In this document: one piece after another, positions 3,959 to 40,331 of the stretch
Position numbering within the stretch: position 1 is the stretch's first letter
Layout: each line of letters starts with the position of its first letter
IMG/VR virus record: IMGVR_UViG_3300025158_000005
From: a virus
Direction: 5' to 3' (one strand)
DNA length: 64,000 nucleotides
The notes under the pieces: model-generated
The model's input: the letters and a program-made list of their open reading frames with translations, nothing else
Databases searched by the model: none
What the model was told of the DNA's origin: nothing
Translations under genes and position numbers: made by a program

Positions 3959-4708
3959 TTGTATTCTACCGATGATGAAGCACACACAATCGACAAACTG
4001 CGTGATCGTCGCAAAAAGAAAGTTCCCGCTGCAAAGAAAAGTTCCAGTTTCGATAATTTGGCGTTGAAGCATGTCGAACCTCTTACCGAAGCACAACGAC
4101 AACTTTTCTTTTCTGTCAAGGAAGGTTATAACGTAATCGCCGATGGAGCAGCAGGCAGCGGAAAGACTTATGGAGCAACTTATCTTGCACTCGAAAAGTT
4201 GTTCAACAAAGAAATCGATAAGGTGGTATTTGTCAGAAGTGCAGTCAATATTAGATCACAGGGGCACTTGCCCGGCACGCAAGACGAAAAAGAAGCAGTT
4301 TATACGATTCCCTTCAAGGAAATTGTAAATGATATTTGTGAGAACGGTACTGCCTGGGACATTTTGTTCAAGAAAGATTTGATCAAGTTTCTTACGACAA
4401 CATATATTCGTGGTATCACTCTAAAGAATTGTGTCATTATTTTTGATGAGTTTCAAAATGCAGATTCCGGGGAATTGTTTGCTGTTTCGTCAAGACTTGG
4501 TGAAAATTCAACGATTATATTTTGTGGCGACACATTTCAAGGAGACTTGAATCGAAAGCGTGAAAAGTCCGGGCATGATTGGTTGCTAAAAGTATCTGAT
4601 AAGATGCCCGATTATTTTGATGTTGTCAACTTCACATATTCGGACATTGTAAGATCGGAATTTGTAAAACAGATGGTTATGGCTGTAGACGTACTAGGAT
4701 TAGACTGA
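3959..4708 (+). CDS. phoH: PhoH-family ATPase
   Basis: GAAGSGKT, GHLPG, YIRGITL, DEFQN, GDTFQ, DIVRS. Confidence 0.93.
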   Translation: MYSTDDEAHTIDKLRDRRKKKVPAAKKSSSFDNLALKHVEPLTEAQRQLFFSVKEGYNVIADGAAGSGKTYGATYLALEKLFNKEIDKVVFVRSAVNIRSQGHLPGTQDEKEAVYTIPFKEIVNDICENGTAWDILFKKDLIKFLTTTYIRGITLKNCVIIFDEFQNADSGELFAVSSRLGENSTIIFCGDTFQGDLNRKREKSGHDWLLKVSDKMPDYFDVVNFTYSDIVRSEFVKQMVMAVDVLGLD

Positions 4709-5151
4709 TGAATATTGGAGATACAGGACTAGCATTAATAAAGAAATGGGAAGGATTTAGCGCAGAGGCTTACTTAGATTCTGTCGGAATTCCAACAATC
4801 GGCTACGGTACGATACGTCTTCCTAATGGAACTAGGGTGACTCTTGGAATGACATGCACAAAGGAAGAGGCTGAAGAGTGGCTTGAACATCATATCAATA
4901 ATAAGGTTACTCCATGCATCACTGAGACAGTTAAAGTGGCTCTAACACAACCAGAAATTGACGCTATATACTCATTCATATACAACTTAGGTTGTGCAAA
5001 CTTCAAGAGATCAACACTTCTGAAGAAGATAAACTCGGAGGATTTTGAGGGAGCATCCTTGGAATTCTCAAAATGGAACAGAGCAGGGCGAAAGGTTATT
5101 GCCGGACTTACTGCGCGGAGACAAGATGAAGCTAAATTATTTATTTCTTAG
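4708..5151 (+). CDS. GH24 lysozyme (endolysin)
   Basis: EG-x8-D-x5-T pattern (WEGFSAEAYLDSVGIPTIGYG), FKRSTLLKKIN, GLTARR. Confidence 0.92.
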   Translation: MNIGDTGLALIKKWEGFSAEAYLDSVGIPTIGYGTIRLPNGTRVTLGMTCTKEEAEEWLEHHINNKVTPCITETVKVALTQPEIDAIYSFIYNLGCANFKRSTLLKKINSEDFEGASLEFSKWNRAGRKVIAGLTARRQDEAKLFIS

Positions 5152-7528: not shown

Positions 7529-7994
7529 ATGACTGCAAAAACTCTAGGTAACATCGGTGAGAACATAGTCAATATGTTTTTTGACAAGTCTAGAATATCG
7601 CGTAGAAATGAGTGATGATATTTTTGATATGGGGGAAAAAGACATGACTGCCGATGGGCTAAAAGACGAAGTTAAAACACAGACACCATGGTATAATCAA
7701 AAACTATTTTCATTTGACGAATCTCAGGAACTAAAAATGAGAAATGCCGGTAGATTGTTTATTGTTGGATATAACAGTGGAGATAGCGTTTCACAAGATT
7801 GGGCGAATTATATATGGCACGTTAATGAGAACTTCGCCGTCGATAGTAGATATGTTAAAAGTTATGGTAATAAGACTAAACGTATGTTTGCTATACATGT
7901 TAATAATAAAGCTATTCAACGGGTACATAAACTAACTTCGACGGAAATAATATCTCTAAAGAACCACACAACTTCTACGTGGAATAAACTATGA
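7529..7994 (+). pseudogene. PD-(D/E)xK-like nuclease, frameshifted
   Basis: MTAKTLGNIGENIV joins the downstream D...EVKTQ frame only if one T is removed from the T6 run at 7577-7582. Confidence 0.5.
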
Positions 7995-8506
7995 AACATG
8001 TAATGATTGACTTAGAAACATTATCGACAAGACCTAATGCGTCAATTCTAAGTATAGGTGCTTGTCGATTTGATGAAAATGGAATTGACACGGACGGATT
8101 TTACGTGAATATTGATCCTCATTCATCAAAAGAATATGGAACACACGTATCTAAATCTACGTTGAAATGGTGGTCGGAGCAAAGTAAAGAAGCAATCGCC
8201 CAACTTCAAGTTGACCAAAGACCCTTAACATATGCACTTGACTTATTCTTGGAATGGTATGGATCAAAGAGTATGAAGACATGGTCTAACGGCGCATCTT
8301 TCGATTTGCCCATTCTTTCTTACTCTTTGGATGCAACTAACAGAAATATTCCTTGGAAATACTATCACGGATTATGTGTCAGGACTATTACTGATCTAAC
8401 AGGGCAAAAGATCGATAGAACTGCCGGAACAGCACACAACGCACTTGATGACGCAATCAATCAAGCAAAATTTATGGTGGAATTTTTGAAGCAGGTGAAG
8501 GGATGA
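7991..8506 (+). CDS. DEDDh 3'-5' exonuclease (DexA/RNase AS-like)
   Basis: HVMIDLETL, WSNGASFD, HNALDDA. Confidence 0.9.
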   Translation: MKHVMIDLETLSTRPNASILSIGACRFDENGIDTDGFYVNIDPHSSKEYGTHVSKSTLKWWSEQSKEAIAQLQVDQRPLTYALDLFLEWYGSKSMKTWSNGASFDLPILSYSLDATNRNIPWKYYHGLCVRTITDLTGQKIDRTAGTAHNALDDAINQAKFMVEFLKQVKG

Positions 8507-10977: not shown

Positions 10978-11050
10978 TGCGGCTTCTCAAGGGAGACTCC
11001 AGGCTCATAACCTGAGATGGGAGAGTGTTCGATTCATTCGGCCGCAACCA
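10978..11050 (+). tRNA. tRNA-Met(CAU), initiator-like, reduced D-arm
   Basis: Loop CTCATAA, acceptor TGCGGCT/GGCCGCA, ACCA. Confidence 0.7.
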
Positions 11051-11055
11051 GTTTT

Positions 11056-11135
11056 AGGATAAGTACAGCAACCAAACTATAATTGAAAGTCAGTCGGCTG
11101 TCCTGGCATTAAACAAAGCGACCAAACTTATCCTG
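11056..11135 (+). ncRNA. CAGCA-stem RNA A1
   Basis: AGGATAAGT-ACAGCAA ... ACTTATCCT-G. Confidence 0.75.
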
Positions 11136-11320: not shown

Positions 11321-11358
11321 GGGCTTCTAGTGCTAACGGAAACACATCTGTCTCCACA
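11321..11358 (+). pseudogene. internally deleted tRNA remnant
   Basis: Acceptor and D-arm GGGCTTCTAGTGCTAACGGAAACAC fused directly to TCTCCACA. Confidence 0.5.
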
Positions 11359-11371
11359 AACGTAAACTTCT

Positions 11372-11379
11372 TATAAATA
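11372..11379 (+). promoter_or_regulatory. T4-type late promoter
   Basis: TATAAATA upstream of a GAGGAGG RBS. Confidence 0.7.
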
Positions 11380-11397
11380 CAAGTGAGGAGGTACTAT

Positions 11398-11762
11398 ATG
11401 CATTATTACTTGTATCAAATCACCAACAAGGTGAATGGGAAGATTTACGTAGGAGTTCATAAGACCCAAAATTTAGATGATGGGGTATATGGGTTCTGGA
11501 AAAGTTATTCGGGCTGCAATCGCAAAGCACGGCGCTCATAACTTCGAAAAAGTCATACTTGAGACTTTCGAGACTTCGGAAGCTATGTATGCGAGAGAAA
11601 ATAGGTTGTAACTGATGAATTTCTTCTGAGAGAAGACGTTTATAACCTCAGAAGAGGTGGTAGTGGTGGATTTGATTTTTTGAATAAAATCATGCCCATA
11701 TTGCGGAAAGACTGTCAGGGTGGCATAATGAAAAGATGGCATTTTGAAAAATGTAAATATAA
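11398..11762 (+). pseudogene. GIY-YIG (Seg-like) homing endonuclease, copy 1
   Basis: YYLYQITNKVNGKIYVGVH...YMGSG...YNLRRGG, broken by two frameshifts. Confidence 0.85.
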
Positions 11763-11841
11763 GGGGGATGGGACTGCTTGACGTGGTCACCGCACTTGCA
11801 ATGCGGACATCAGATCGGTTTGATGCCGATATCCTCCACCA
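11763..11841 (+). tRNA. tRNA-Ala(UGC)
   Basis: Loop CTTGCAA, G3:U70 pair, ACCA. Confidence 0.9.
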
Positions 11842-11848
11842 AAACAAT

Positions 11849-11925
11849 CCTTCTGTAGTTCAACTGGTTTAGAACAGGCGACCGATAATCGTCAGATTCA
11901 GGTTCAATCCCTGATGGAAGGACCA
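11849..11925 (+). tRNA. tRNA-Ile(GAU)
   Basis: Loop CCGATAA, ACCA. Confidence 0.88.
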
Positions 11926-11973
11926 AAATTTTGTAAGTTATAAACAGAATGTCTTATCTATAAGTAACTTACA

Positions 11974-12024
11974 ATGAATTACAAGAAAATTTACGTTCAA
12001 ATAATAGAAAACCGAAATAGTTAA
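11974..12024 (+). pseudogene. short remnant of an HNH gene 5' end
   Basis: Near-identical to the start at 10089 (ATGAATTACAAGAAAATTTACG...). Confidence 0.6.
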
Positions 12025-12025
12025 A

Positions 12026-12111
12026 GCTGGATTAGCCAAGCGGTCGACGGCAGCTGCCTTGTAAGCAGTCGGGGAAACCCCTCACAGGTTCGAATCCTGT
12101 GTCCAGCACCA
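12026..12111 (+). tRNA. tRNA-Thr(UGU) with long variable arm
   Basis: Loop CTTGTAA, variable arm GGGG-AAA-CCCC, ACCA. Confidence 0.85.
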
Positions 12112-12116
12112 ATTAT

Positions 12117-12194
12117 CCGTGATTCGCCTAGTCCGGTATGGCACTCCGTTTGGGGCGGAGAATAACGGGAGTTCAAATCTCTCATCACGGACCA
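12117..12194 (+). tRNA. tRNA-Pro(UGG)
   Basis: CTCCG-TTTGGGG-CGGAG, ACCA. Confidence 0.92.
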
Positions 12195-12381
12195 TACGCG
12201 GCAACTAATCATTGCCTAGTCGGCAGAGTGGTCGATAACTGCGACGAATGAAGTGGCGTGATTGCCATGAATAAACCGACCTAGGTATGCCATCTGGTGT
12301 GTATCGAATGAAAGACACGTCATGGGAATGAGTGGCCCTAGGGTCTCTGTGATACTCTGTTTGACAACCAGATCAAATTAT

Positions 12382-12456
12382 GGCTCGGTAGCATTAAGAT
12401 AATGCGCTCCCCTGTCTAGGGAGAACAAGAGGGTTTGATTCCCTTCCGAGTCGCCA
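12382..12456 (+). tRNA. tRNA-Asp(GUC)
   Basis: CTCCC-CTGTCTA-GGGAG, GCCA. Confidence 0.88.
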
Positions 12457-12460
12457 GTTT

Positions 12461-12582
12461 AGGATGACTACAGCAATTAAAATCTCCTTCTAAGAGAGTG
12501 GTCGGTGGTTCGAATCCACCTCGGCGGTGAGGTTAAACTCGTCGTTGGTAGCTCAGTGGTAGAGCACTTAACGTTCATCCTG
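12461..12582 (+). ncRNA. CAGCA-stem RNA A2 carrying a circularly permuted tRNA-Arg(UCU)
   Basis: Order is anticodon arm, T-arm, closed acceptor hairpin, D-arm, all inside an AGGATGA/TCATCCT stem. Confidence 0.85.
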
Positions 12583-12593
12583 TTATATAAAAT

Positions 12594-12667
12594 GCCCTCT
12601 GAAGTGTAATGAATGCACGATTCGCTACGGACGAATTAGAACGGTTTGATTCCGGCAGAGGGTGCCA
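12594..12667 (+). tRNA. tRNA-Arg(ACG)
   Basis: ATTCG-CTACGGA-CGAAT, GCCA. Confidence 0.85.
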
Positions 12668-12673
12668 ATCAAT

Positions 12674-12747
12674 GCAGCTAAGCTCATGGAGAGTCCCGCG
12701 CCTTCCAAGCGTTGGAGAGTGGATTTCGATCATCCCTAGCTGCTCCA
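12674..12747 (+). tRNA. tRNA-Gly(UCC), reduced D-arm
   Basis: Loop CTTCCAA, acceptor GCAGCTA/TAGCTGC, TCCA. Confidence 0.75.
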
Positions 12748-12753
12748 TTTAAT

Positions 12754-12827
12754 GCGTGTGTAGTATAGCCTGGTTATTATTCGGCGTTGCCAACGCCGAG
12801 ACCCCGGTTCGAATCCGGGCACCCGCA
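12754..12827 (+). tRNA. tRNA-Gly(GCC), CCA not encoded
   Basis: CGGCG-TTGCCAA-CGCCG; canonical T-arm. Confidence 0.85.
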
Positions 12828-12879
12828 CACAAAAGTAAACTTCTTACAAATACAAGTAATATGACAAACGGAGAAATCC

Positions 12880-13554
12880 TTGTTCTTTTACTTGTATCAA
12901 ATCACCAACAAGGTGAATGGGAAGATTTACGTAGGAGTTCATAAGACTCAAAATTTAGATGATGGGGTATACGGGCTCTGGAGCAATAATTCAACGAGCA
13001 ATTAAGAAATACGGCTTGGAGAATTTTGAAAAAGTCATACTTGAGACTTTCGAGACTTCGGAAGCTATGTATGCGAGAGAAAATAGGTTGTAACTGATGA
13101 ATTTCTTCTGAGAGAAGATGTTTATAACCTCAGAAGAGGTGGTCAGGGTGGGATTATATAAATTCTGACACTGAATCATTAAGGTTGAGAAATAAACAAA
13201 ATCGAAAAACACCAACCAAAAATTGTTTGAACGATACGGAGAAAATTGGTCGAGTATTGTTGGTAAACTTGGCGAAGTGGCCACTCAACTAGCGAATCCT
13301 GGTTTAGCTAGTAGCACAGCAAAGCGAGGACACTTAGAAGGATGGATTAGCTTTAAAGGAAAAATTCATTCAGAAGATACCAAAAAGTTAATGTCATTGA
13401 AAGCAAAAGAAAGACTAAAAATACCATCAAACAATTCTCAATTCGGAACATGTTGGATCTGGCACGAATTGATAGGAAATAAAAAATGTAAAAAGACGAT
13501 CTTTCTTTGTATCTCGAACAAGGATGGTATAAGGGAAGACGTATTAAGTTTTAG
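12880..13554 (+). pseudogene. GIY-YIG homing endonuclease, copy 2
   Basis: N-terminal region nearly identical to copy 1 with the same frameshifts; C-terminal FKGKIHSEDTKKLMS (NUMOD3-like). Confidence 0.85.
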
Positions 13555-13612
13555 GATGATTACAGCAACCAAAACAAAATCAAACTTTTCCTTTGACGAG
13601 AAAATCATCCTG
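13553..13612 (+). ncRNA. CAGCA-stem RNA A3 with a Gln(UUG)-like anticodon hairpin
   Basis: AGGATGATT-ACAGCAA ... TTTTC-CTTTGAC-GAGAA ... AATCATCCT-G. Confidence 0.75.
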
Positions 13613-13670
13613 TAATACATCGGTATACTCATCAACAAATATTTATATGAGTATACCGATAGAATAAAAA

Positions 13671-14139: not shown

Positions 14140-14214
14140 ACTCTCGTAGCTCAATGCCAGAGTAGATGCCTCTAAAACATCTTGTTGTCGGTTCGAGCCC
14201 GACTGAGAGTACCA
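14140..14214 (+). tRNA. amber suppressor tRNA (CUA)
   Basis: GATGC-CTCTAAA-ACATC; canonical T-arm; ACCA. Confidence 0.85.
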
Positions 14215-14650: not shown

Positions 14651-14727
14651 GCCCCGATAGCTTAACGGAATAGAGCTAAGGTCTTCTACACCTTTAGATG
14701 GGAGTTCGAATCTCTCTCGGGGCGCCA
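14651..14727 (+). tRNA. tRNA-Arg(UCU)
   Basis: AAGGT-CTTCTAC-ACCTT, GCCA. Confidence 0.92.
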
Positions 14728-14733
14728 AGTTTT

Positions 14734-14786
14734 AGGATAATTCCAGCAATCAAAATTCTTTCATATAGAAACCAAAAATTATCCTG
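14734..14786 (+). ncRNA. CAGCA-stem RNA A4 with a Met(CAU)-like anticodon hairpin
   Basis: AGGATAATT-CCAGCAA ... TTCT-TTCATAT-AGAA ... AATTATCCT-G. Confidence 0.75.
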
Positions 14787-15329: not shown

Positions 15330-15690
15330 ATTCGATGAAGGCTAGGAAAGATGCTGCGGACAGGGGTTCGACTCCCCTCTGCTCCACCAGAAAGAAATCT
15401 AAATGCATATGCATACTACCGAAAGGCTGGGCTAACATGGCGGTTAGTTTAGATTTCTTCCTAATGGGGCAGTCCCGGTTTCGACGTGGTAGACGAGTAC
15501 AATGCTGGAGGATCGGCAAATGTTGGAAGCCGTTAGGATTGGGATTTCCCGGTCTAAGAAGACACAAGCAGAAATGCAAACATGGAAGCGTCTAACGATG
15601 CAACTTACGAGGTTCGTCTGGCTGCTTAATTGCAGACTGATCTAGACTCAGAGTTTCGCCGATTGTACTTGGTAACAGAAACAGTCGGCA
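15330..15690 (+). ncRNA. ssrA: two-piece (circularly permuted) tmRNA; outer ends approximate
   Basis: Acceptor piece GGACAGGGGTTCGACTCCCCTCTGCTCCACCA (ends 15389) precedes the 5' piece GGGGCAG...TTCGAC (starts 15466); tag frame ...ASNDATYEVRLAA-TAA ends 15629. Confidence 0.92.
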
Positions 15691-37508: not shown

Positions 37509-37566
37509 TTGACGAAAAATAAGTTTTACTATATAATAGATGTATAAGTTATAAACTGCTCTTTAA
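37509..37566 (+). promoter_or_regulatory. sigma70 promoter followed by boxA
   Basis: TTGACG-17-TATAAT (37509-37537); TGCTCTTTAA (37557-37566). Confidence 0.75.
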
Positions 37567-37575
37567 TGATATATT

Positions 37576-37775
37576 AGGATAGATACAGCAACAAATTTTA
37601 AAAGACCTACTAAGATTGCCCTAACTTGTGTGAAAGGCTGACTACCGGGAAAGACGGTGACAACTTGGAAAGACACGTTAGAGCCAACGTCGAATCAGTT
37701 GGTGATGTTCAAGGAAATTACTTGATGACACTTGAAAAGACAAGTGCTAAGGGGAAAGCCATGATCTCTATCCTG
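37576..37775 (+). ncRNA. CAGCA-stem RNA A5 (long, multi-hairpin)
   Basis: AGGATAGAT-ACAGCAA ... TCTATCCT-G. Confidence 0.75.
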
Positions 37776-37792
37776 TTAAAGTTGTAAAATTT

Positions 37793-37896
37793 AGGATGAC
37801 TACAGCATACACTTAAAATATCGCTAATGCCTAGAAGTTATAAGGGTCCGGCGCCGAGTATATACGGACGTGGGACCTAGGGCTTCTGTTATCCTG
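37793..37896 (+). ncRNA. CAGCA-stem RNA A6
   Basis: AGGATGACT-ACAGCAT ... GTTATCCT-G. Confidence 0.75.
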
Positions 37897-37914
37897 TCAA
37901 AATGAAGTAGTTTT

Positions 37915-37983
37915 AGAATGTTTGCAGCAAACACTATCTGCAAAGCGATTCCGAGGGACTTATAAATCCCCTCAAACATTCTG
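37915..37983 (+). ncRNA. CAGCA-stem RNA A7
   Basis: AGAATGTTT-GCAGCAA ... AAACATTCT-G (compensatory G-C to A-T change). Confidence 0.75.
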
Positions 37984-38003: not shown

Positions 38004-38492
38004 ATGAACACTTTTGCACAAGCAGTAAACGCTCCCGCAGTTACCTCAACCACCAACGGCATGAAGGCTTTTACCAACACTGGCAAGTCTATTGTCGACC
38101 TGTTTTATTCGATCGGCTCGTCACGTAATGCACAACCTAAGATTGCTGCTGAATTCTCTCGCGCATTCGCCGAGGACAAGACCCTAGCGGCTCGTACCCT
38201 ATTTTGGGCACGTGATATTCGTGGCGGCGCGGGCGAACGTTTGACGTTCCGTAATCTGATGTTACAGTTGGAAAAGACTGACGTGAACGCATGTAAGCGG
38301 CTAATTCCGTTGATCCCCGAATATGGTCGTTGGGATGATCTGTTGATCTTCACCGCGGCTGATACCAAGGAAGTTGCATATAAAATTATATCAAAAACTC
38401 TCAAAAATGGGATAAAATCCCGTCACATATTGGAAATAATTGAATCGTTGTCTGAAGATGATTGTAAAGAATTGTTGGAGCATTTTGAATAA
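38004..38492 (+). CDS. DUF2828 (TROVE/Ro60-like) protein, N-terminal half
   Basis: TTNG, VDLF, LFWARDIRGGAGER, IPEYGRWDDL. Confidence 0.85.
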   Translation: MNTFAQAVNAPAVTSTTNGMKAFTNTGKSIVDLFYSIGSSRNAQPKIAAEFSRAFAEDKTLAARTLFWARDIRGGAGERLTFRNLMLQLEKTDVNACKRLIPLIPEYGRWDDLLIFTAADTKEVAYKIISKTLKNGIKSRHILEIIESLSEDDCKELLEHFE

Positions 38493-39232
38493 TGTCTAAC
38501 GATGTTTGCATTATCAATTTCTTTTTTGCATATCATACAGCAGCACAATAATGGTTTAACTCTACATTTACTCATCTCACCAGTAAAATGTGGGCAATTA
38601 TTAAAATGATGTTGTTTCATTGCACCGTAATTGGTTCCAATTTTGCCGCAATGTGGACAAGTAAATTCTCCAACTAACGGTTTAGGTTTTGAATATGTAT
38701 TATTCTCAATCAGTTTCATAATATTCAATTTCGCGGCATCTGATCTATTTTTGATATGTTCTTGATCTACGGCTGGATTAAATTTACAATTATCACCATG
38801 AAATCTAATATAATTTCCAGGATCAGTTTCTCGATTACAATGTGGGCACAATTTCTTTTGAGTGTGTTTTCTAGCTTGACTTATATTAAATCGTCTCTCG
38901 TCAGAACATGGTTTATGTTTAAACGGCAACATTATTTTAATCTCAAATGGAGTTAAAGATTGTCTTTTTGTAAAAAATGTCATAGCGTGTTCCATTTTGT
39001 ATTTGTCTGATCCACTGGTCATTTTAGTCAGCAACCAATGACAAACAAAATGTTCTTTAATGCTAAGATAAACAAGTTGATTATTTTTAATAATAGATTT
39101 AGGATAAATGTGATGACCTTCTACTTCTCCTAGCATTAATTTAGCATCTTTTCTTGTTTTCGCCCGGGCAATAGCTTTATCTATTATTTGAAAATACCAC
39201 TTAGTGTATTTGTTGTCTATAAAATGAATCAT
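38423..39232 (-). mobile_element. HNH homing endonuclease inserted antisense within the DUF2828 gene
   Basis: NKYTKWY, EGHHIYPKS, EHFVCHWLL; repeated CPHC...H..NC modules; AT-rich. Confidence 0.88.
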
Positions 39233-39241
39233 TATTTGTCA

Positions 39242-39270
39242 TTGACTTAAATTATTAATTGATATATTAT
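39242..39270 (+). promoter_or_regulatory. sigma70-like promoter for the C-terminal half
   Basis: TTGACT-17-TATTAT. Confidence 0.55.
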
Positions 39271-39299
39271 ATATAAATGGATACCTTGAAAGGGTTAAA

Positions 39300-40331
39300 A
39301 TGTCTTACAAAACACAATTAGAATCAATCTGTCGTCAAAATTTGTCTAGCGCGCAGTTGTGCGCTAAGTGGCAAGATCGTAAAGGGCTGGCAGCAGTCGA
39401 ATTGCGTAAGTTCATGAAGATGACGCCAAAGCAGTATCGCAAGACTTTGGTTTCAATGACTAACGTCGTTGAACAGTCAATGTGTGCCCAAGAATGGGAT
39501 AAGATCGAATTTGACAAGTTGCCTTCTGTTGCGTCAAAGATTTACATGAAGGCATTCACCAAGAATGCGACCGCGCAATATATGAAGTACAAGGAAGCCT
39601 TGACGAAGGGCGAAGCGAAGATCAATGCATCGGCGATCTTCCCGTACCAAGTTATTCAAGGTATGCGCCGTGGTGACGCAACCGTTGGTATGGCGCAATG
39701 GGGCGCACTGCCTAACTATTTGGGCGATGATAAGATTCTGACTATGGTAGACGTGTCGGGGTCAATGAACTGCCCTGCTGGCAGCAACGTGAGTTGTATG
39801 GATATTGCAGTGTCTCTTGGTCTGTATATTGCAGATAAGCAACAAGGCGCATTCAACGGCATGTTCTTGACGTTCTCGGAGAAGCCTCAATTGGTGCAGT
39901 TGACCGGTAACATTCAACAAAAGATGTCGCAAATGCAACGCTCCGACTGGGGTATGAACACCAACATCACCGCGGCATTCGATGAAGTATTGGAGGTGGC
40001 AACTCGTAACAAGGTTGAAGTATCTGAAATGCCCAAGTTCATCTTGATCATGTCAGATATGCAGTTTGATAGATGCTCCAACATGTCTGGGCTGGAAATG
40101 ATTCGTACAAAGTATGAAGCGGCAGGGTACGAAGTTCCGAAGATTGTTTTCTGGAACTTGAATGCAATACACGCAAACGCGCCGACGACGGTCCGTACAG
40201 ATGGTGTTGCATTGATTTCAGGATTCTCGCCTGCAATCATGAAGTCCGTGTTGAAAGCAGAAAACTTTGATCCATTGTCGATTGTTATGCAAACGATTAA
40301 CGGTCCTCGTTATCAGATGATTGAACTGTAA
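39300..40331 (+). CDS. DUF2828 protein, C-terminal half with vWA domain
   Basis: CAKW, YRKTL, MIDAS motif DVSGSM, TFS, WGMNTN, SDMQFD, VFWNL, SGFSP. Confidence 0.9.
   Translation: MSYKTQLESICRQNLSSAQLCAKWQDRKGLAAVELRKFMKMTPKQYRKTLVSMTNVVEQSMCAQEWDKIEFDKLPSVASKIYMKAFTKNATAQYMKYKEALTKGEAKINASAIFPYQVIQGMRRGDATVGMAQWGALPNYLGDDKILTMVDVSGSMNCPAGSNVSCMDIAVSLGLYIADKQQGAFNGMFLTFSEKPQLVQLTGNIQQKMSQMQRSDWGMNTNITAAFDEVLEVATRNKVEVSEMPKFILIMSDMQFDRCSNMSGLEMIRTKYEAAGYEVPKIVFWNLNAIHANAPTTVRTDGVALISGFSPAIMKSVLKAENFDPLSIVMQTINGPRYQMIEL

What the first reader, a model, noticed from the sequence alone, without database searches (positions are those of the whole stretch)
12461..12582. Circularly permuted tRNA-Arg(UCU) mounted on the CAGCA stem
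Seen, 5' to 3': anticodon arm TCTC-CTTCTAA-GAGA (12483-12497), variable GTGGTC, perfect T-arm GGTGG-TTCGAAT-CCACC (12504-12520), an acceptor-like helix closed by a loop (12521-12548, rich in G-U pairs, no CCA), then TA and D-arm GCTC-AGTGGTA-GAGC (12551-12565). The chain is opened between the D-arm and the anticodon arm. Established: YrlA Y RNAs have the same T / closed acceptor / D order, but their Ro-binding stem replaces the anticodon arm. Here the anticodon arm is retained. A normal tRNA-Arg(UCU) exists at 14651. Inference: this is a non-chargeable tRNA mimic (decoy or tether), or less likely a permuted pre-tRNA.
Basis: partly seen in the sequence, partly recalled or inferred. Interest (0 to 1): 0.87.

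Follow-up and report, generated by a model that had tools for sequence, protein, structure and literature searches.

The report
Permuted tRNA mimic on Ro-like handle
This 121-base stretch in a T4-like phage's tRNA cluster is a small RNA that displays a complete but rewired copy of tRNA-Arg on a conserved "handle"; the same handle sits in front of a Ro60-like protein gene in many phages, so it is most likely that protein's partner RNA and belongs to a family I found in no paper or RNA catalogue.

Summary
Positions 12461-12581 hold a terminal stem, an unpaired ACAGCAAUUAAAA motif, an anticodon-like hairpin (loop CUUCUAA), a 5-nt variable region, a T arm, a closed 7-bp acceptor helix and a D arm. 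After re-permutation in silico, ARAGORN calls it tRNA-Arg(UCU).

It is not a one-off. A covariance model built only from other phages' elements finds it end to end (91.4 bits, E 9e-19), and the helices covary.

The "CAGCA" handle defines a large phage RNA family. Short members display only an anticodon-like hairpin. Long members add a tRNA body.

The window, 16 of 16 near-complete element-bearing phage genomes, and cultured phages such as E. coli Felixounavirus momo all encode a DUF2828+vWA protein. Its predicted fold matches Ro60. In loci chosen by the protein alone, handle RNAs lie just upstream of the gene on the same strand.

Best reading: a Y-RNA analogue of YrlA type that keeps the anticodon arm. 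Binding and function are untested.

The handle also resembles the Class I RNAs of Dictyostelium.

This scan has reported the same protein-RNA pairing before on other DNA (28 notes). A 2024 preprint reported a Ro60-like gp130 in Felix-O1-type phage Bas63 and guessed at Y RNAs without identifying them.

The parts
12457..12460 (+). 5' spacer GUUU between the CCA end of tRNA-Asp (ends 12456) and the element
   Evidence: The spacer GUUUU / GUUU is conserved in front of family members.
12461..12467 (+). Outer (terminal) stem, 5' strand AGGAUGA; pairs with 12575-12581
   Evidence: 101 of 105 pattern matches in viral contigs have an exact complement of 7 nt or more downstream. The stem covaries.
12470..12482 (+). 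Unpaired handle motif ACAGCAAUUAAAA (CAGCAA at 12471-12476)
   Evidence: CAGCAA and AAA are invariant in alignments A1, A3 and A5. The motif aligns with CAGCAAUuaAAa in the Rfam Class I RNA consensus.
12483..12497 (+). Anticodon-arm mimic: stem UCUC/GAGA, 7-nt loop CUUCUAA (triplet UCU)
   Evidence: In short family members the best hairpin is usually 5 bp, and 44 of the 90 with a stem of 4 bp or more have a 7-nt loop. In those 44 loops, position 33 is U in 38 and position 37 is A in 38.
12498..12503 (+). G43 equivalent (12498, can pair with C12567) and 5-nt variable region UGGUC (12499-12503; C48 partner of G15)
   Evidence: and the sequence itself.
12504..12520 (+). T arm GGUGG-UUCGAAU-CCACC
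   Evidence: The three T-stem pairs not fixed by the search pattern average 2.95 of 3 paired within a sequence against 1.58 across sequences.
12521..12548 (+). Closed acceptor-like helix: 12521-12527 pairs with 12542-12548 (7 bp), extended by 12528-12531 with 12538-12541; loop 12532-12537; no CCA
   Evidence: With the 5' strand defined by its anchor (the 7 nt before U8), the acceptor averages 6.43 of 7 pairs within a sequence against 3.10 across sequences, with 5 or 6 standard pair types at every position.
12549..12565 (+). U8, A9 and D arm GCUC-AGUGGUA-GAGC (A14, G15, G18, G19 present)
12566..12574 (+). A26 and C27 equivalents, then 3' linker UUAACGU back to the outer stem
12575..12583 (+). 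Outer stem 3' strand UCAUCCU, followed by the conserved GU
   Evidence: The ending ...CCU-GU is shared across the family.
11056..11134 (+). Sibling handle RNA (79 nt) after a tRNA
   Evidence: families D6 and D12; R1 37.5 bits.
13553..13611 (+). Sibling short handle RNA displaying the hairpin UCAAA-CUUUUCC-UUUGA
   Evidence: R1 47.1 bits.
14734..14785 (+). Sibling short handle RNA (loop UUCAUAU) directly after tRNA-Arg(UCU)
   Evidence: R1 54 bits. Rfam Dicty_Class_I_RNA 26.4 bits, full length.
37576..37982 (+). Three handle RNAs (37576-37774, 37793-37895, 37915-37982) in the leader of the Ro60-like gene, downstream of a promoter-like site near 37509
   Evidence: R1 hit at 37915-37982, 22.3 bits.
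38004..38492 (+). N-terminal piece of the Ro60-like (DUF2828) protein gene
   Evidence: Pfam PF11443. Aligns to residues 3-138 of an intact homologue.
39300..40331 (+). C-terminal piece of the Ro60-like protein gene (DUF2828 + DUF7788/vWA)
   Evidence: Pfam. Aligns to residues 135-474 of an intact homologue. The fold of the intact homologue matches Ro60.

Best explanation
The element is a small non-coding RNA made of two modules.

Module 1 is a handle: a covarying terminal stem, the unpaired motif yCAGCAAyyAAA next to its 5' strand, and a 3' end ...CCU-GU. Module 2 is a display. Here it is a whole tRNA-Arg(UCU) look-alike whose acceptor end is closed by a loop and whose chain is opened at 27/28 in the anticodon stem.

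I read it as the phage counterpart of a bacterial YrlA-type Y RNA. In this reading the handle is bound by the phage's Ro60-like ring protein (DUF2828 + vWA, encoded 25 kb downstream with three more handle RNAs in its leader). The display then offers a tRNA or anticodon-loop shape to some tRNA-recognising factor, either to tether it to the ring or to titrate it.

The RNA is probably cut out of the polycistronic tRNA transcript.

Shown:
- the structure
- membership in the family
- covariation of the helices
- genomic linkage of the family to the gene
- the Ro60-like predicted fold of the protein

Inferred:
- physical binding of the handle by the protein
- excision from the transcript
- the tether or decoy role
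For: Structure and family:
- Cloverleaf after re-permutation.
- R2, built without the window, scores it 91.4 bits, E 8.8e-19, full length.
- Covariation in all five helices.
- The Rfam YrlA model matches the T / acceptor / D core, and matches other long members up to 41.2 bits; one match is full length, 1-114.
- Four handle copies lie in the tRNA array and three in the leader of the DUF2828 gene.

Protein:
- PF11443 + PF25043.
- An AlphaFold2 model of an intact homologue (pLDDT 79.6) has Ro60 / TROVE entries as the top 12 listed hits in the PDB, all aligned over the full length and all with E of 3.4e-5 or better. The best is phage phiLo Ro60, E 5.5e-10.

Linkage between RNA and gene:
- PF11443 is found in 27 of 34 element-bearing viral records, in 16 of 16 that are at least 90% complete, and in 0 of 14 control cellular genomes.
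- tblastn with an intact homologue matches only 710 of 50,697 isolate phage records.
- In 80 loci picked by the protein alone, all 61 R1 hits and all 23 R2 hits lie on the gene's strand and upstream of it. About 30 of them end 25-35 nt before the start codon.
- Whole-genome R1 scan: T4 has 0 hits; four DUF2828-bearing isolates have at least 1 each.
- Units flank the gene in Synechococcus phage BUCT-ZZ01 and E. coli phage momo.

Precedent:
- Y RNAs lie next to rsr on the same strand and mimic tRNA (PMC4201824).
- Phage phiLo Ro60 binds two RNAs encoded upstream of its gene (PMC12135203).
Against: - No binding, expression or end-mapping data exist for any member.
- This element lies 25 kb from the protein gene, not beside it.
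- The canonical Ro-binding motif GNCGAAN0-1G is absent, the Rfam YrlA score is below threshold (31.7 against 69), and the protein misses Pfam TROVE (0 of 5 genomes). The parallel with Ro and Y RNA therefore rests on predicted fold and gene order.
- The partner gene in this window is in two pieces, separated by an antisense ORF. Both pieces look intact, but activity is unknown.
- In the PhageMaP preprint, Bas63 gp130 alone, expressed from a plasmid, rescued T7 on the Ppl defence. T7 has none of these RNAs, so at least that activity does not need them.
- Handle RNAs often follow tRNA CCA ends, which would also fit a processing role.
Confidence: 0.72

Rival explanations
1. Permuted pre-tRNA. The transcript is matured into a working tRNA-Arg(UCU): the outer module is removed, positions 27 and 28 are joined, the acceptor loop is opened by RNase P and 3' trimming, and CCA is added.
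For: - The re-permuted sequence gives a flawless cloverleaf with all the tertiary-pair nucleotides.
- The acceptor helix is exactly 7 bp in many members.
- M. smegmatis YrlA is cut by RNase P and receives CCA (PMC4201824).
Against: - Most family members are 50-65 nt and carry only the hairpin, so they cannot give a tRNA.
- Some long members lack the hairpin altogether.
- Close relatives with an invariant stem differ only in the triplet: GUA, GGA, UAG, GCA, GAA.
- A normal tRNA-Arg(UCU) is already present.
- From general knowledge, no bacterial or phage enzyme is known that would excise and join at this site.
- The handle is conserved where no tRNA body exists.
Confidence: 0.05
2. Processing punctuation. 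The handle hairpins are cleavage or protection signals that separate and stabilise tRNAs in the long array, and the tRNA-like insert is a by-product. The link to the DUF2828 gene would only reflect shared neighbourhood.
For: - Many units start 4-5 nt after a tRNA CCA end with GUUUU and are followed by GU.
- No terminator-like site on the + strand separates the units from the tRNAs.
Against: - Units sit directly in front of the DUF2828 start codon in loci chosen by the protein.
- A 12-nt single-stranded motif is conserved across unrelated phage groups.
- T4, which also has a tRNA array, has no unit.
- The displayed hairpins have the anticodon-loop signature.
Confidence: 0.12
3. Chance, or a scar: the T arm of one decayed tRNA next to the D arm of another. 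Chen et al. warned that such tRNA dimers give false positives with YrlA models.
For: - The element lies in a dense tRNA array.
- R2 does give weak hits on true tRNA dimers, for example 36.3 bits on T4.
Against: - The two acceptor strands pair with each other and are joined by a loop.
- No 5' acceptor strand or D arm precedes the element, and no anticodon arm follows it.
- It scores 91.4 bits over the full length, handle included.
- The family covaries.
Confidence: 0.02

Closest known systems
YrlA-type bacterial and phage Y RNAs with Ro60/Rsr (Rfam RF02553; Chen et al. 2014, PMC4201824)
   Same: - The 5' and 3' ends form a stem next to a short conserved motif.
- The effector module has the order T arm, closed acceptor, D arm, with tRNA tertiary nucleotides.
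- Several different RNAs occur per genome, encoded on the same strand next to a ring-protein gene with a vWA domain.
- Short companions without the tRNA body exist (compare YrlB).
   Different: - The handle motif is CAGCAAyyAAA, not GNCGAAN0-1G.
- The partner is a DUF2828 protein that Pfam TROVE does not detect.
- Many members, this one included, keep an anticodon-like stem-loop.
- Many copies are scattered through tRNA arrays.
- The Rfam score is below threshold.
Class I RNAs of Dictyostelium (Rfam RF01414; Kjellin et al. 2021, PMC7919456)
   Same: - About 55-60 nt, with a short covarying terminal stem.
- An unpaired conserved motif lies next to the 5' strand; the Rfam consensus ..UUACAGCAAUuaAAa aligns with the phage motif.
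- The interior is variable and the 3' end is CUG(U).
- The Rfam model aligns full length to phage short units at 26-35 bits.
   Different: - All scores are below the gathering score of 41.5.
- Class I RNAs are eukaryotic, have their own upstream promoter element, and have a known binder, Rnp1A.
- No tRNA-like versions are described.
- The long element studied here was not itself matched by RF01414.
Thermus phage phiLo Ro60 with Yrl1 and Yrl2 (PMC12135203)
   Same: A phage-encoded Ro60 ring with two small RNAs encoded just upstream. Binding has been shown in vitro, and this protein is the top structural match to the DUF2828 model.
   Different: A canonical TROVE protein. Its RNAs carry the CGAA motif and no tRNA body.
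Bas63 gp130, a Ro60-like counter-defence protein against Ppl (PhageMaP preprint, 10.1101/2024.10.10.617714)
   Same: A Ro60-like protein encoded directly upstream of the tRNA stretch of a Felix-O1-type phage. The authors suggested that some of the annotated 'tRNAs' may be Y RNAs.
   Different: No partner RNA was identified. I did not verify by sequence that gp130 is the DUF2828 orthologue; I infer it from its position and fold and from the fact that the momo gene matched 251 phage records, nearly all Felix-O1-type.
Circularly permuted tRNA genes of the red alga Cyanidioschyzon merolae (general knowledge)
   Same: The 3' part of the tRNA is encoded before the 5' part, and the acceptor ends are joined by a short intervening loop.
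   Different: Those genes are matured through a bulge-helix-bulge motif and a circular intermediate into working tRNAs. Here there is no such motif, no known machinery, and most relatives lack a tRNA body.

Membership tests
YrlA (Rfam RF02553) | Score at or above the curated gathering score (69 bits) | tested here: not met
   31.7 bits; local match to model positions 22-89 of 114 only.
YrlA (Rfam RF02553) | tRNA-like module in the order T arm, closed acceptor-like helix, D arm | tested here: met
   covariation.
YrlA (Rfam RF02553) | GNCGAAN0-1G motif near the 5' end (the putative Ro-binding site; PMC4201824) | tested here: not met
   Absent from 12461-12503. ACAGCAAUUAAAA occupies the equivalent place.
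YrlA (Rfam RF02553) | Encoded within about 4 kb of a TROVE-domain Ro60 gene, on the same strand | tested here: not met
   This copy lies 25 kb from the gene, and the gene is DUF2828, not Pfam TROVE. Sibling units and long units of other phages do meet the adjacency rule with respect to DUF2828.
Y RNA in the broad sense (RNA subunit of a Ro60 particle) | Bound by a Ro60-type protein | not testable with these tools
   Only the genomic linkage and the predicted Ro60-like fold of the partner are available.
Handle-RNA family defined here (models R1 and R2) | Covarying terminal stem + yCAGCAAyyAAA + displayed module + ...CCU-GU end | tested here: met
   R2, built without the window: 91.4 bits, E 8.8e-19, positions 1-132 of 132.
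tRNA (Rfam RF00005 / ARAGORN) | Contiguous cloverleaf with free acceptor ends | tested here: not met
   Not called in the native order by ARAGORN or Rfam. Called tRNA-Arg(tct) only after re-permutation with CCA appended.
Dictyostelium Class I RNA (Rfam RF01414) | Score at or above the gathering score (41.5 bits) | tested here: not met
   Sibling short unit 14735-14786 scores 26.4 bits. The best phage unit scores 35.3 bits. The element itself gave no RF01414 match.
Dictyostelium Class I RNA (Rfam RF01414) | Short terminal stem, unpaired conserved motif next to the 5' strand, CUGU end, about 60 nt (PMC7919456) | tested here: inconclusive
   All these features are present in the short phage units. 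Common descent was not tested, and I could not check whether Dictyostelium has a DUF2828 gene.
Ro60 / TROVE + vWA (partner protein) | Pfam TROVE (PF05731) match | tested here: not met
   0 of 5 element-bearing phage genomes. The window's protein hits PF11443, PF25043 and a weak vWA instead.
Ro60 / TROVE + vWA (partner protein) | Helical-repeat ring followed by a vWA domain (the fold) | tested here: met
   The top 12 listed Foldseek PDB hits are all Ro60 entries, aligned over the full length, with TM about 0.53-0.59 for the best ones. This is a predicted model of a homologue that is 42-48% identical to the window's two pieces.
Permuted tRNA gene (matured to a working tRNA) | Processing signal at the outer junction and a mature joined product | not testable with these tools
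   No RNA data are available. The family's composition argues against it.

The most novel reading that the evidence does not exclude
The CAGCAA handle RNAs and the Class I RNAs of Dictyostelium are one family. If so, the orphan amoebal RNAs would be Y-RNA-like partners of a Ro60-like (DUF2828-type) protein. The phage versions would be programmable displays: an interchangeable anticodon loop or a whole tRNA body presented on a Ro-like ring, used to capture or mislead host factors that read anticodon loops, such as tRNA-cutting defence nucleases.
Probability: 0.25. Interest if true: 0.92.

Novelty: new variant of a known kind. Interest (0 to 1): 0.78.

Why it matters
Ro60 and its Y RNAs are a classic RNA-surveillance particle, yet what the tRNA-like part of bacterial Y RNAs is for remains open.

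This work finds a second, much larger branch in phages. The protein family is different (thousands of homologues). The handle is different. The displays range from a bare anticodon loop to a complete rewired tRNA.

The family occurs in Felix-O1-type phages of E. coli K-12. A preprint reports that the Ro60-like gp130 of one such phage, Bas63, counters the Ppl defence system; I did not confirm by sequence that gp130 is the DUF2828 orthologue. The question is therefore directly testable at the bench.

It also offers a candidate explanation for the Class I RNAs of social amoebae. Those RNAs were reported from no other organism (PMC7919456).

Practically, these RNAs are unannotated and lie in tRNA arrays, where gene callers either miss them or could mistake them for tRNAs.

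Tried and rejected
- **Close relatives by DNA.** blastn of 11800-13200 against isolate phages found only homing-endonuclease and tRNA fragments.
- **A canonical Ro60 gene.** Pfam TROVE gave 0 of 5 genomes.
- **T4's stable RNAs.** rnaC and rnaD in the T4 tRNA cluster lack the handle by eye and get no R1 hit.
- **Known RNA families.** Rfam at permissive thresholds finds nothing over its curated cut-off for the handle units.
- **Protein by sequence against the PDB.** Nothing. Only the comparison of folds worked.
- **Closer homologues of the Arg(UCU) display.** A specific pattern found only one, L018 389-510. The anticodon hairpin of this exact subtype could therefore not be tested for covariation by itself; in L018 it is weaker (2 contiguous pairs).
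- **Origin from the phage's own tRNA-Arg(UCU).** Not supported: that tRNA is not among the eight most similar tRNAs in the window (all 64-72% identical).
- **First MAFFT alignment of long units (A1).** The 3' stem was misaligned. Adding short flanks fixed this (A4, A5).
- **Hairpin register in A5.** The hairpin is one column out of register between sequences with 4-nt and 5-nt variable regions, which lowers its measured pairing to 75%.
- **Literature on DUF2828 in phages.** Nothing found.
- **DUF2828 in Dictyostelium.** No tool here holds eukaryotic genomes, so this could not be checked.
Full report
**1. What is in the sequence**

The window is part of a T4-like phage. It encodes gp5, gp6, gp53, gp32, gp59, RNase H and NAMPT homologues. 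Between 9965 and 22033 it holds a large tRNA array: ARAGORN finds 27 genes there, 26 tRNAs and a permuted tmRNA.

The finding lies 4 nt after the CCA end of tRNA-Asp. Read 5' to 3', it contains:
- outer stem, 5' strand AGGAUGA (12461-12467)
- CU, then ACAGCAAUUAAAA (12470-12482)
- hairpin UCUC-CUUCUAA-GAGA (12483-12497)
- G, then UGGUC
- T arm (12504-12520)
- a helix closed by a loop (12521-12548); its first 7 bp stack on the T arm as an acceptor stem would
- U and A
- D arm (12551-12565)
- ACUUAACGU
- outer stem, 3' strand UCAUCCU (12575-12581), followed by GU

The nucleotides behind tRNA tertiary contacts are all in place: U8, A14, G15 with C48, G18, G19, and the T-loop UUCGAAU. Neither ARAGORN nor Rfam calls a tRNA here in the native order.

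When the pieces are rejoined in silico (12542-12567 followed by 12483-12528, with CCA appended), ARAGORN returns a canonical tRNA-Arg(tct). Joins at 27/28 and at 28/29 give the same sequence, because the CU after the D arm repeats the start of the hairpin. The break is therefore best placed inside the 5' strand of the anticodon stem.

Folding the single sequence is not significant on its own (z = -1.89).

**2. It belongs to a large family**

Inside the window the 5' part (GUUUUAGGAUnnnnyCAGCAAyyAAA) and the closing strand (nnnnAUCCUGU) recur four times, at 11056, 12461, 13553 and 14734. The stems covary.

A pattern holding only the 5' strand and the motif found 97 viral contigs. In 101 of the 105 matches, an exact complement of 7 nt or more to the first bases follows downstream, mostly 52-62 nt away, where about 2% would be expected by chance. 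A second pattern that requires a T-loop after the motif found 64 distinct closed elements, 56 of them 104-146 nt long.

*Short units.* These hold the handle plus one hairpin. The best hairpin is usually 5 bp (54 of 91 units). Among the 90 with a stem of 4 bp or more, 44 have a 7-nt loop, against about 11% of shuffled controls. In those 44 loops position 32 is C in 27, 33 is U in 38, 37 is A in 38 and 38 is A in 34. The middle triplet takes 20 different values. This is the signature of an anticodon loop.

*Long units.* These add a variable region, T arm, closed acceptor and D arm. They form a series:
- some have a full 5-bp hairpin and are opened at 26/27
- some share the five pairs between the hairpin and a short helix made by the bases after the D arm; the window's element is of this kind (a 4-bp hairpin plus the C12567-G12498 pair)
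- some have no hairpin and close the tRNA body with a 5-bp helix, as YrlA does

In one subgroup the hairpin stem is invariant while the triplet reads GUA, GGA, UAG, GCA or GAA.

**3. Statistics**

With the acceptor 5' strand defined only by its anchor (the 7 nt before U8), the acceptor averages 6.43 of 7 pairs within a sequence against 3.10 between sequences. Every position shows 5 or 6 standard pair types.

On alignment A5 (31 long units, none from the window), 92.5% of cells pair. Shuffles give 64.7% (0 of 500 reach the observed value) and sliding the partners gives 35-49%. 26 of 30 pairs change on both sides.

It also finds long units in Escherichia phage momo (75.5 bits) and Synechococcus phage BUCT-ZZ01 (52.3 bits).

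R2 gives weak hits on genuine tRNA dimers, for example 36 bits in T4. Chen et al. warned of this kind of false positive. The element is not a dimer: its two acceptor strands pair with each other, and the handle is part of the match.

**4. The partner**

My first search for a Ro60 gene (Pfam TROVE) was negative in five element-bearing phage genomes. I tested that lead.

*In the window.* ORFs 38004-38492 and 39300-40331 carry PF11443, PF25043 (DUF7788) and a weak vWA match. They align to residues 3-138 and 135-474 of an intact homologue. The gene is thus cut cleanly in two by an antisense ORF, with nothing lost. Its leader, after a promoter-like site near 37509, holds three more handle units.

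*Fold.* An AlphaFold2 model of an intact homologue (L218, 474 aa, pLDDT 79.6) was searched against the PDB. The top 12 listed hits are all Ro60 entries aligned over the full length: phage phiLo, Xenopus, Deinococcus Rsr and human. E-values run from 5.5e-10 to 3.4e-5, and only isolated vWA domains follow. Sequence search against the PDB found nothing.

*Linkage.*
- PF11443 is present in 27 of 34 element-bearing viral records and in 16 of 16 that are at least 90% complete. The seven without it are 35-83% complete. It is absent from 14 control cellular genomes.
- tblastn with the intact homologue matches only 710 of 50,697 isolate phage records.
- In 80 viral loci picked by protein similarity alone, all 61 R1 hits at E of 0.01 or less and all 23 R2 hits at E of 1e-5 or less lie on the gene's strand and upstream of it. 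None lies in the 3 kb downstream. About 30 loci have a unit ending 25-35 nt before the start codon. In at least seven of them this unit is a long, tRNA-like one.
- In phage momo four units sit in the tRNA array that begins right after the gene. In BUCT-ZZ01 three sit in the leader and one long unit follows the gene.
- A whole-genome R1 scan gave 0 hits in T4 and at least 1 in each of four DUF2828-bearing isolates. The numbers are small.

**5. Comparison with what is known**

*YrlA and Ro60.* YrlA RNAs are encoded next to rsr on the same strand. They carry a GNCGAAN0-1G motif near the 5' end and a T arm / closed acceptor / D arm module. M. smegmatis YrlA, which has a 7-bp acceptor, is cut by RNase P and receives CCA (PMC4201824). 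That survey covered only genomes with an annotated TROVE protein.

The present element shares the module order and the logic of the locus. It fails the Rfam threshold (31.7 against 69), lacks the motif, and has a partner outside Pfam TROVE. I therefore file it as working like a YrlA-type Y RNA, not as a member of YrlA.

*Other phage Ro60 systems.* Phage phiLo Ro60 binds two RNAs encoded upstream of its gene (PMC12135203). A review of jumbo phages notes TROVE proteins in a few of them (PMC7824862).

*Bas63 gp130.* The PhageMaP preprint reports that Bas63 gp130 is Ro60-like, lies directly upstream of the tRNA stretch, and counters the Ppl defence. It suggests that some annotated tRNAs may be Y RNAs, but names none. 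gp130 alone rescued T7, so that activity does not require these RNAs. I did not verify by sequence that gp130 is the DUF2828 orthologue. The momo gene matched 251 phage records, nearly all Felix-O1-type.

*Literature and catalogues.* A full-text search for DUF2828 found no paper on its role in phages. Rfam 15 has no family for the handle.

**6. An unexpected resemblance**

The only Rfam model that repeatedly aligns full length to the short units is Dicty_Class_I_RNA. Scores are 35.3, 32.2, 31.9, 31.5, 30.8, 30.8 and 26.7 bits on units of other phages, and 26.4 bits on the window's unit at 14735-14786. All are below the gathering score of 41.5.

The consensus G-stem-UUACAGCAAUuaAAa ... A-rich ... 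stem-CUG matches the phage handle nearly base for base. Kjellin et al. describe Class I RNAs as follows (PMC7919456):
- 42-65 nt long
- a 6-bp covarying terminal stem
- an unpaired 11-nt motif beside the 5' strand
- a CUGU end
- a variable interior
- not found outside dictyostelids

I reached this resemblance before reading the earlier notes of this scan, which report the same thing on other genomes. Whether it reflects common descent, and whether amoebae have a DUF2828 partner, could not be tested here.

**7. Mechanism and rivals**

Most likely (about 0.7), the RNA is cut from the tRNA transcript. Promoter-like sites lie at 9.1-9.6 kb and no terminator-like site on the + strand intervenes (consensus matches only). 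The handle is then held by the Ro60-like protein, and the tRNA-Arg look-alike is presented to a factor that recognises tRNA shape or the anticodon loop.

Two observations fit a decoy or adaptor aimed at readers of anticodon loops, but neither proves it:
- The loop frame (32, 33, 37, 38) is conserved while the triplet varies freely.
- The phage's real tRNA-Arg(UCU) has loop CUUCUAC, while the mimic has CUUCUAA.

Rivals:
- A true permuted pre-tRNA (0.05). The short and hairpin-less relatives, and the tRNA-Arg(UCU) already present, speak against it.
- Processing punctuation for the tRNA array (0.12). The conserved single-stranded motif, the units in front of the DUF2828 start codon, and their absence from T4 speak against it.
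- A chance tRNA-dimer scar (0.02). Contradicted.

**8. Verdict**

The element is one member, with an unusually complete tRNA display, of a widespread phage RNA family that I found in no paper or RNA catalogue and that is tied to a Ro60-like protein. Only one other Arg(UCU)-type copy exists in the viral collection.

It is a new variant of a known kind, the Ro60 / Y RNA particle. This scan has met the same protein-RNA pairing before on other DNA. All functional statements remain inference.

Noticed in passing
window 38004-40331: The Ro60-like DUF2828 gene is split cleanly at about residue 134/135 into two intact ORFs by an 807-nt ORF on the opposite strand (38423-39232, no Pfam hit). The halves align to residues 3-138 and 135-474 of an intact homologue.
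   Followed up: partly
window 12595-12666 and about 12676-12750: Two further tRNA-like genes that ARAGORN missed. The first is a tRNA-Arg(ACG)-like gene with a weak T stem (Rfam tRNA 30.9 bits). The second is a tRNA-Gly(UCC)-like gene ending in CCA, seen by eye only. Similar unlisted tRNA-like stretches end near 11049 and 11843.
   Followed up: partly
window 11355-11669 and 12828-13151: A repeat of about 300 nt (89-93% identical, 1.48 kb apart) brackets the segment that holds the finding. It covers homing-endonuclease-like ORF fragments, and a NUMOD3 ORF lies at 13223-13615. This may be a trace of module shuffling in the tRNA array.
   Followed up: no
window 15331-15629: A permuted (two-piece) tmRNA inside the phage tRNA array (Rfam tmRNA_permuted 78.4 bits; ARAGORN tag ANMEASNDATYEVRLAA).
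   Followed up: no
window 14140-14214: A tRNA with anticodon CUA (amber suppressor type; ARAGORN labels it tRNA-Pyl).
   Followed up: no
window 7991-8506: A 3'-5' exoribonuclease gene (Rv2179c-like / RNase T family, E 1.8e-43) just upstream of the tRNA region. Ro60 particles in bacteria work with 3'-5' exoribonucleases, so it may be worth asking whether this enzyme is related to the system.
   Followed up: no
L225 (Escherichia phage momo, MN850580) 4216-4986: Four unannotated handle RNAs lie between the annotated tRNA genes right after the 'vWFA protein' gene. The last one (4857-4993) is a long tRNA-like unit (R2 75.5 bits). This phage group grows on E. coli K-12.
   Followed up: partly
L209 (phage T4) 4909-5172, minus strand: T4 rnaC ends in a T arm followed by an acceptor-like 3' strand, but neither rnaC nor rnaD carries the CAGCAA handle. 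T4 has no R1 hit in its whole genome.
   Followed up: yes
I did not examine it.
   Followed up: no
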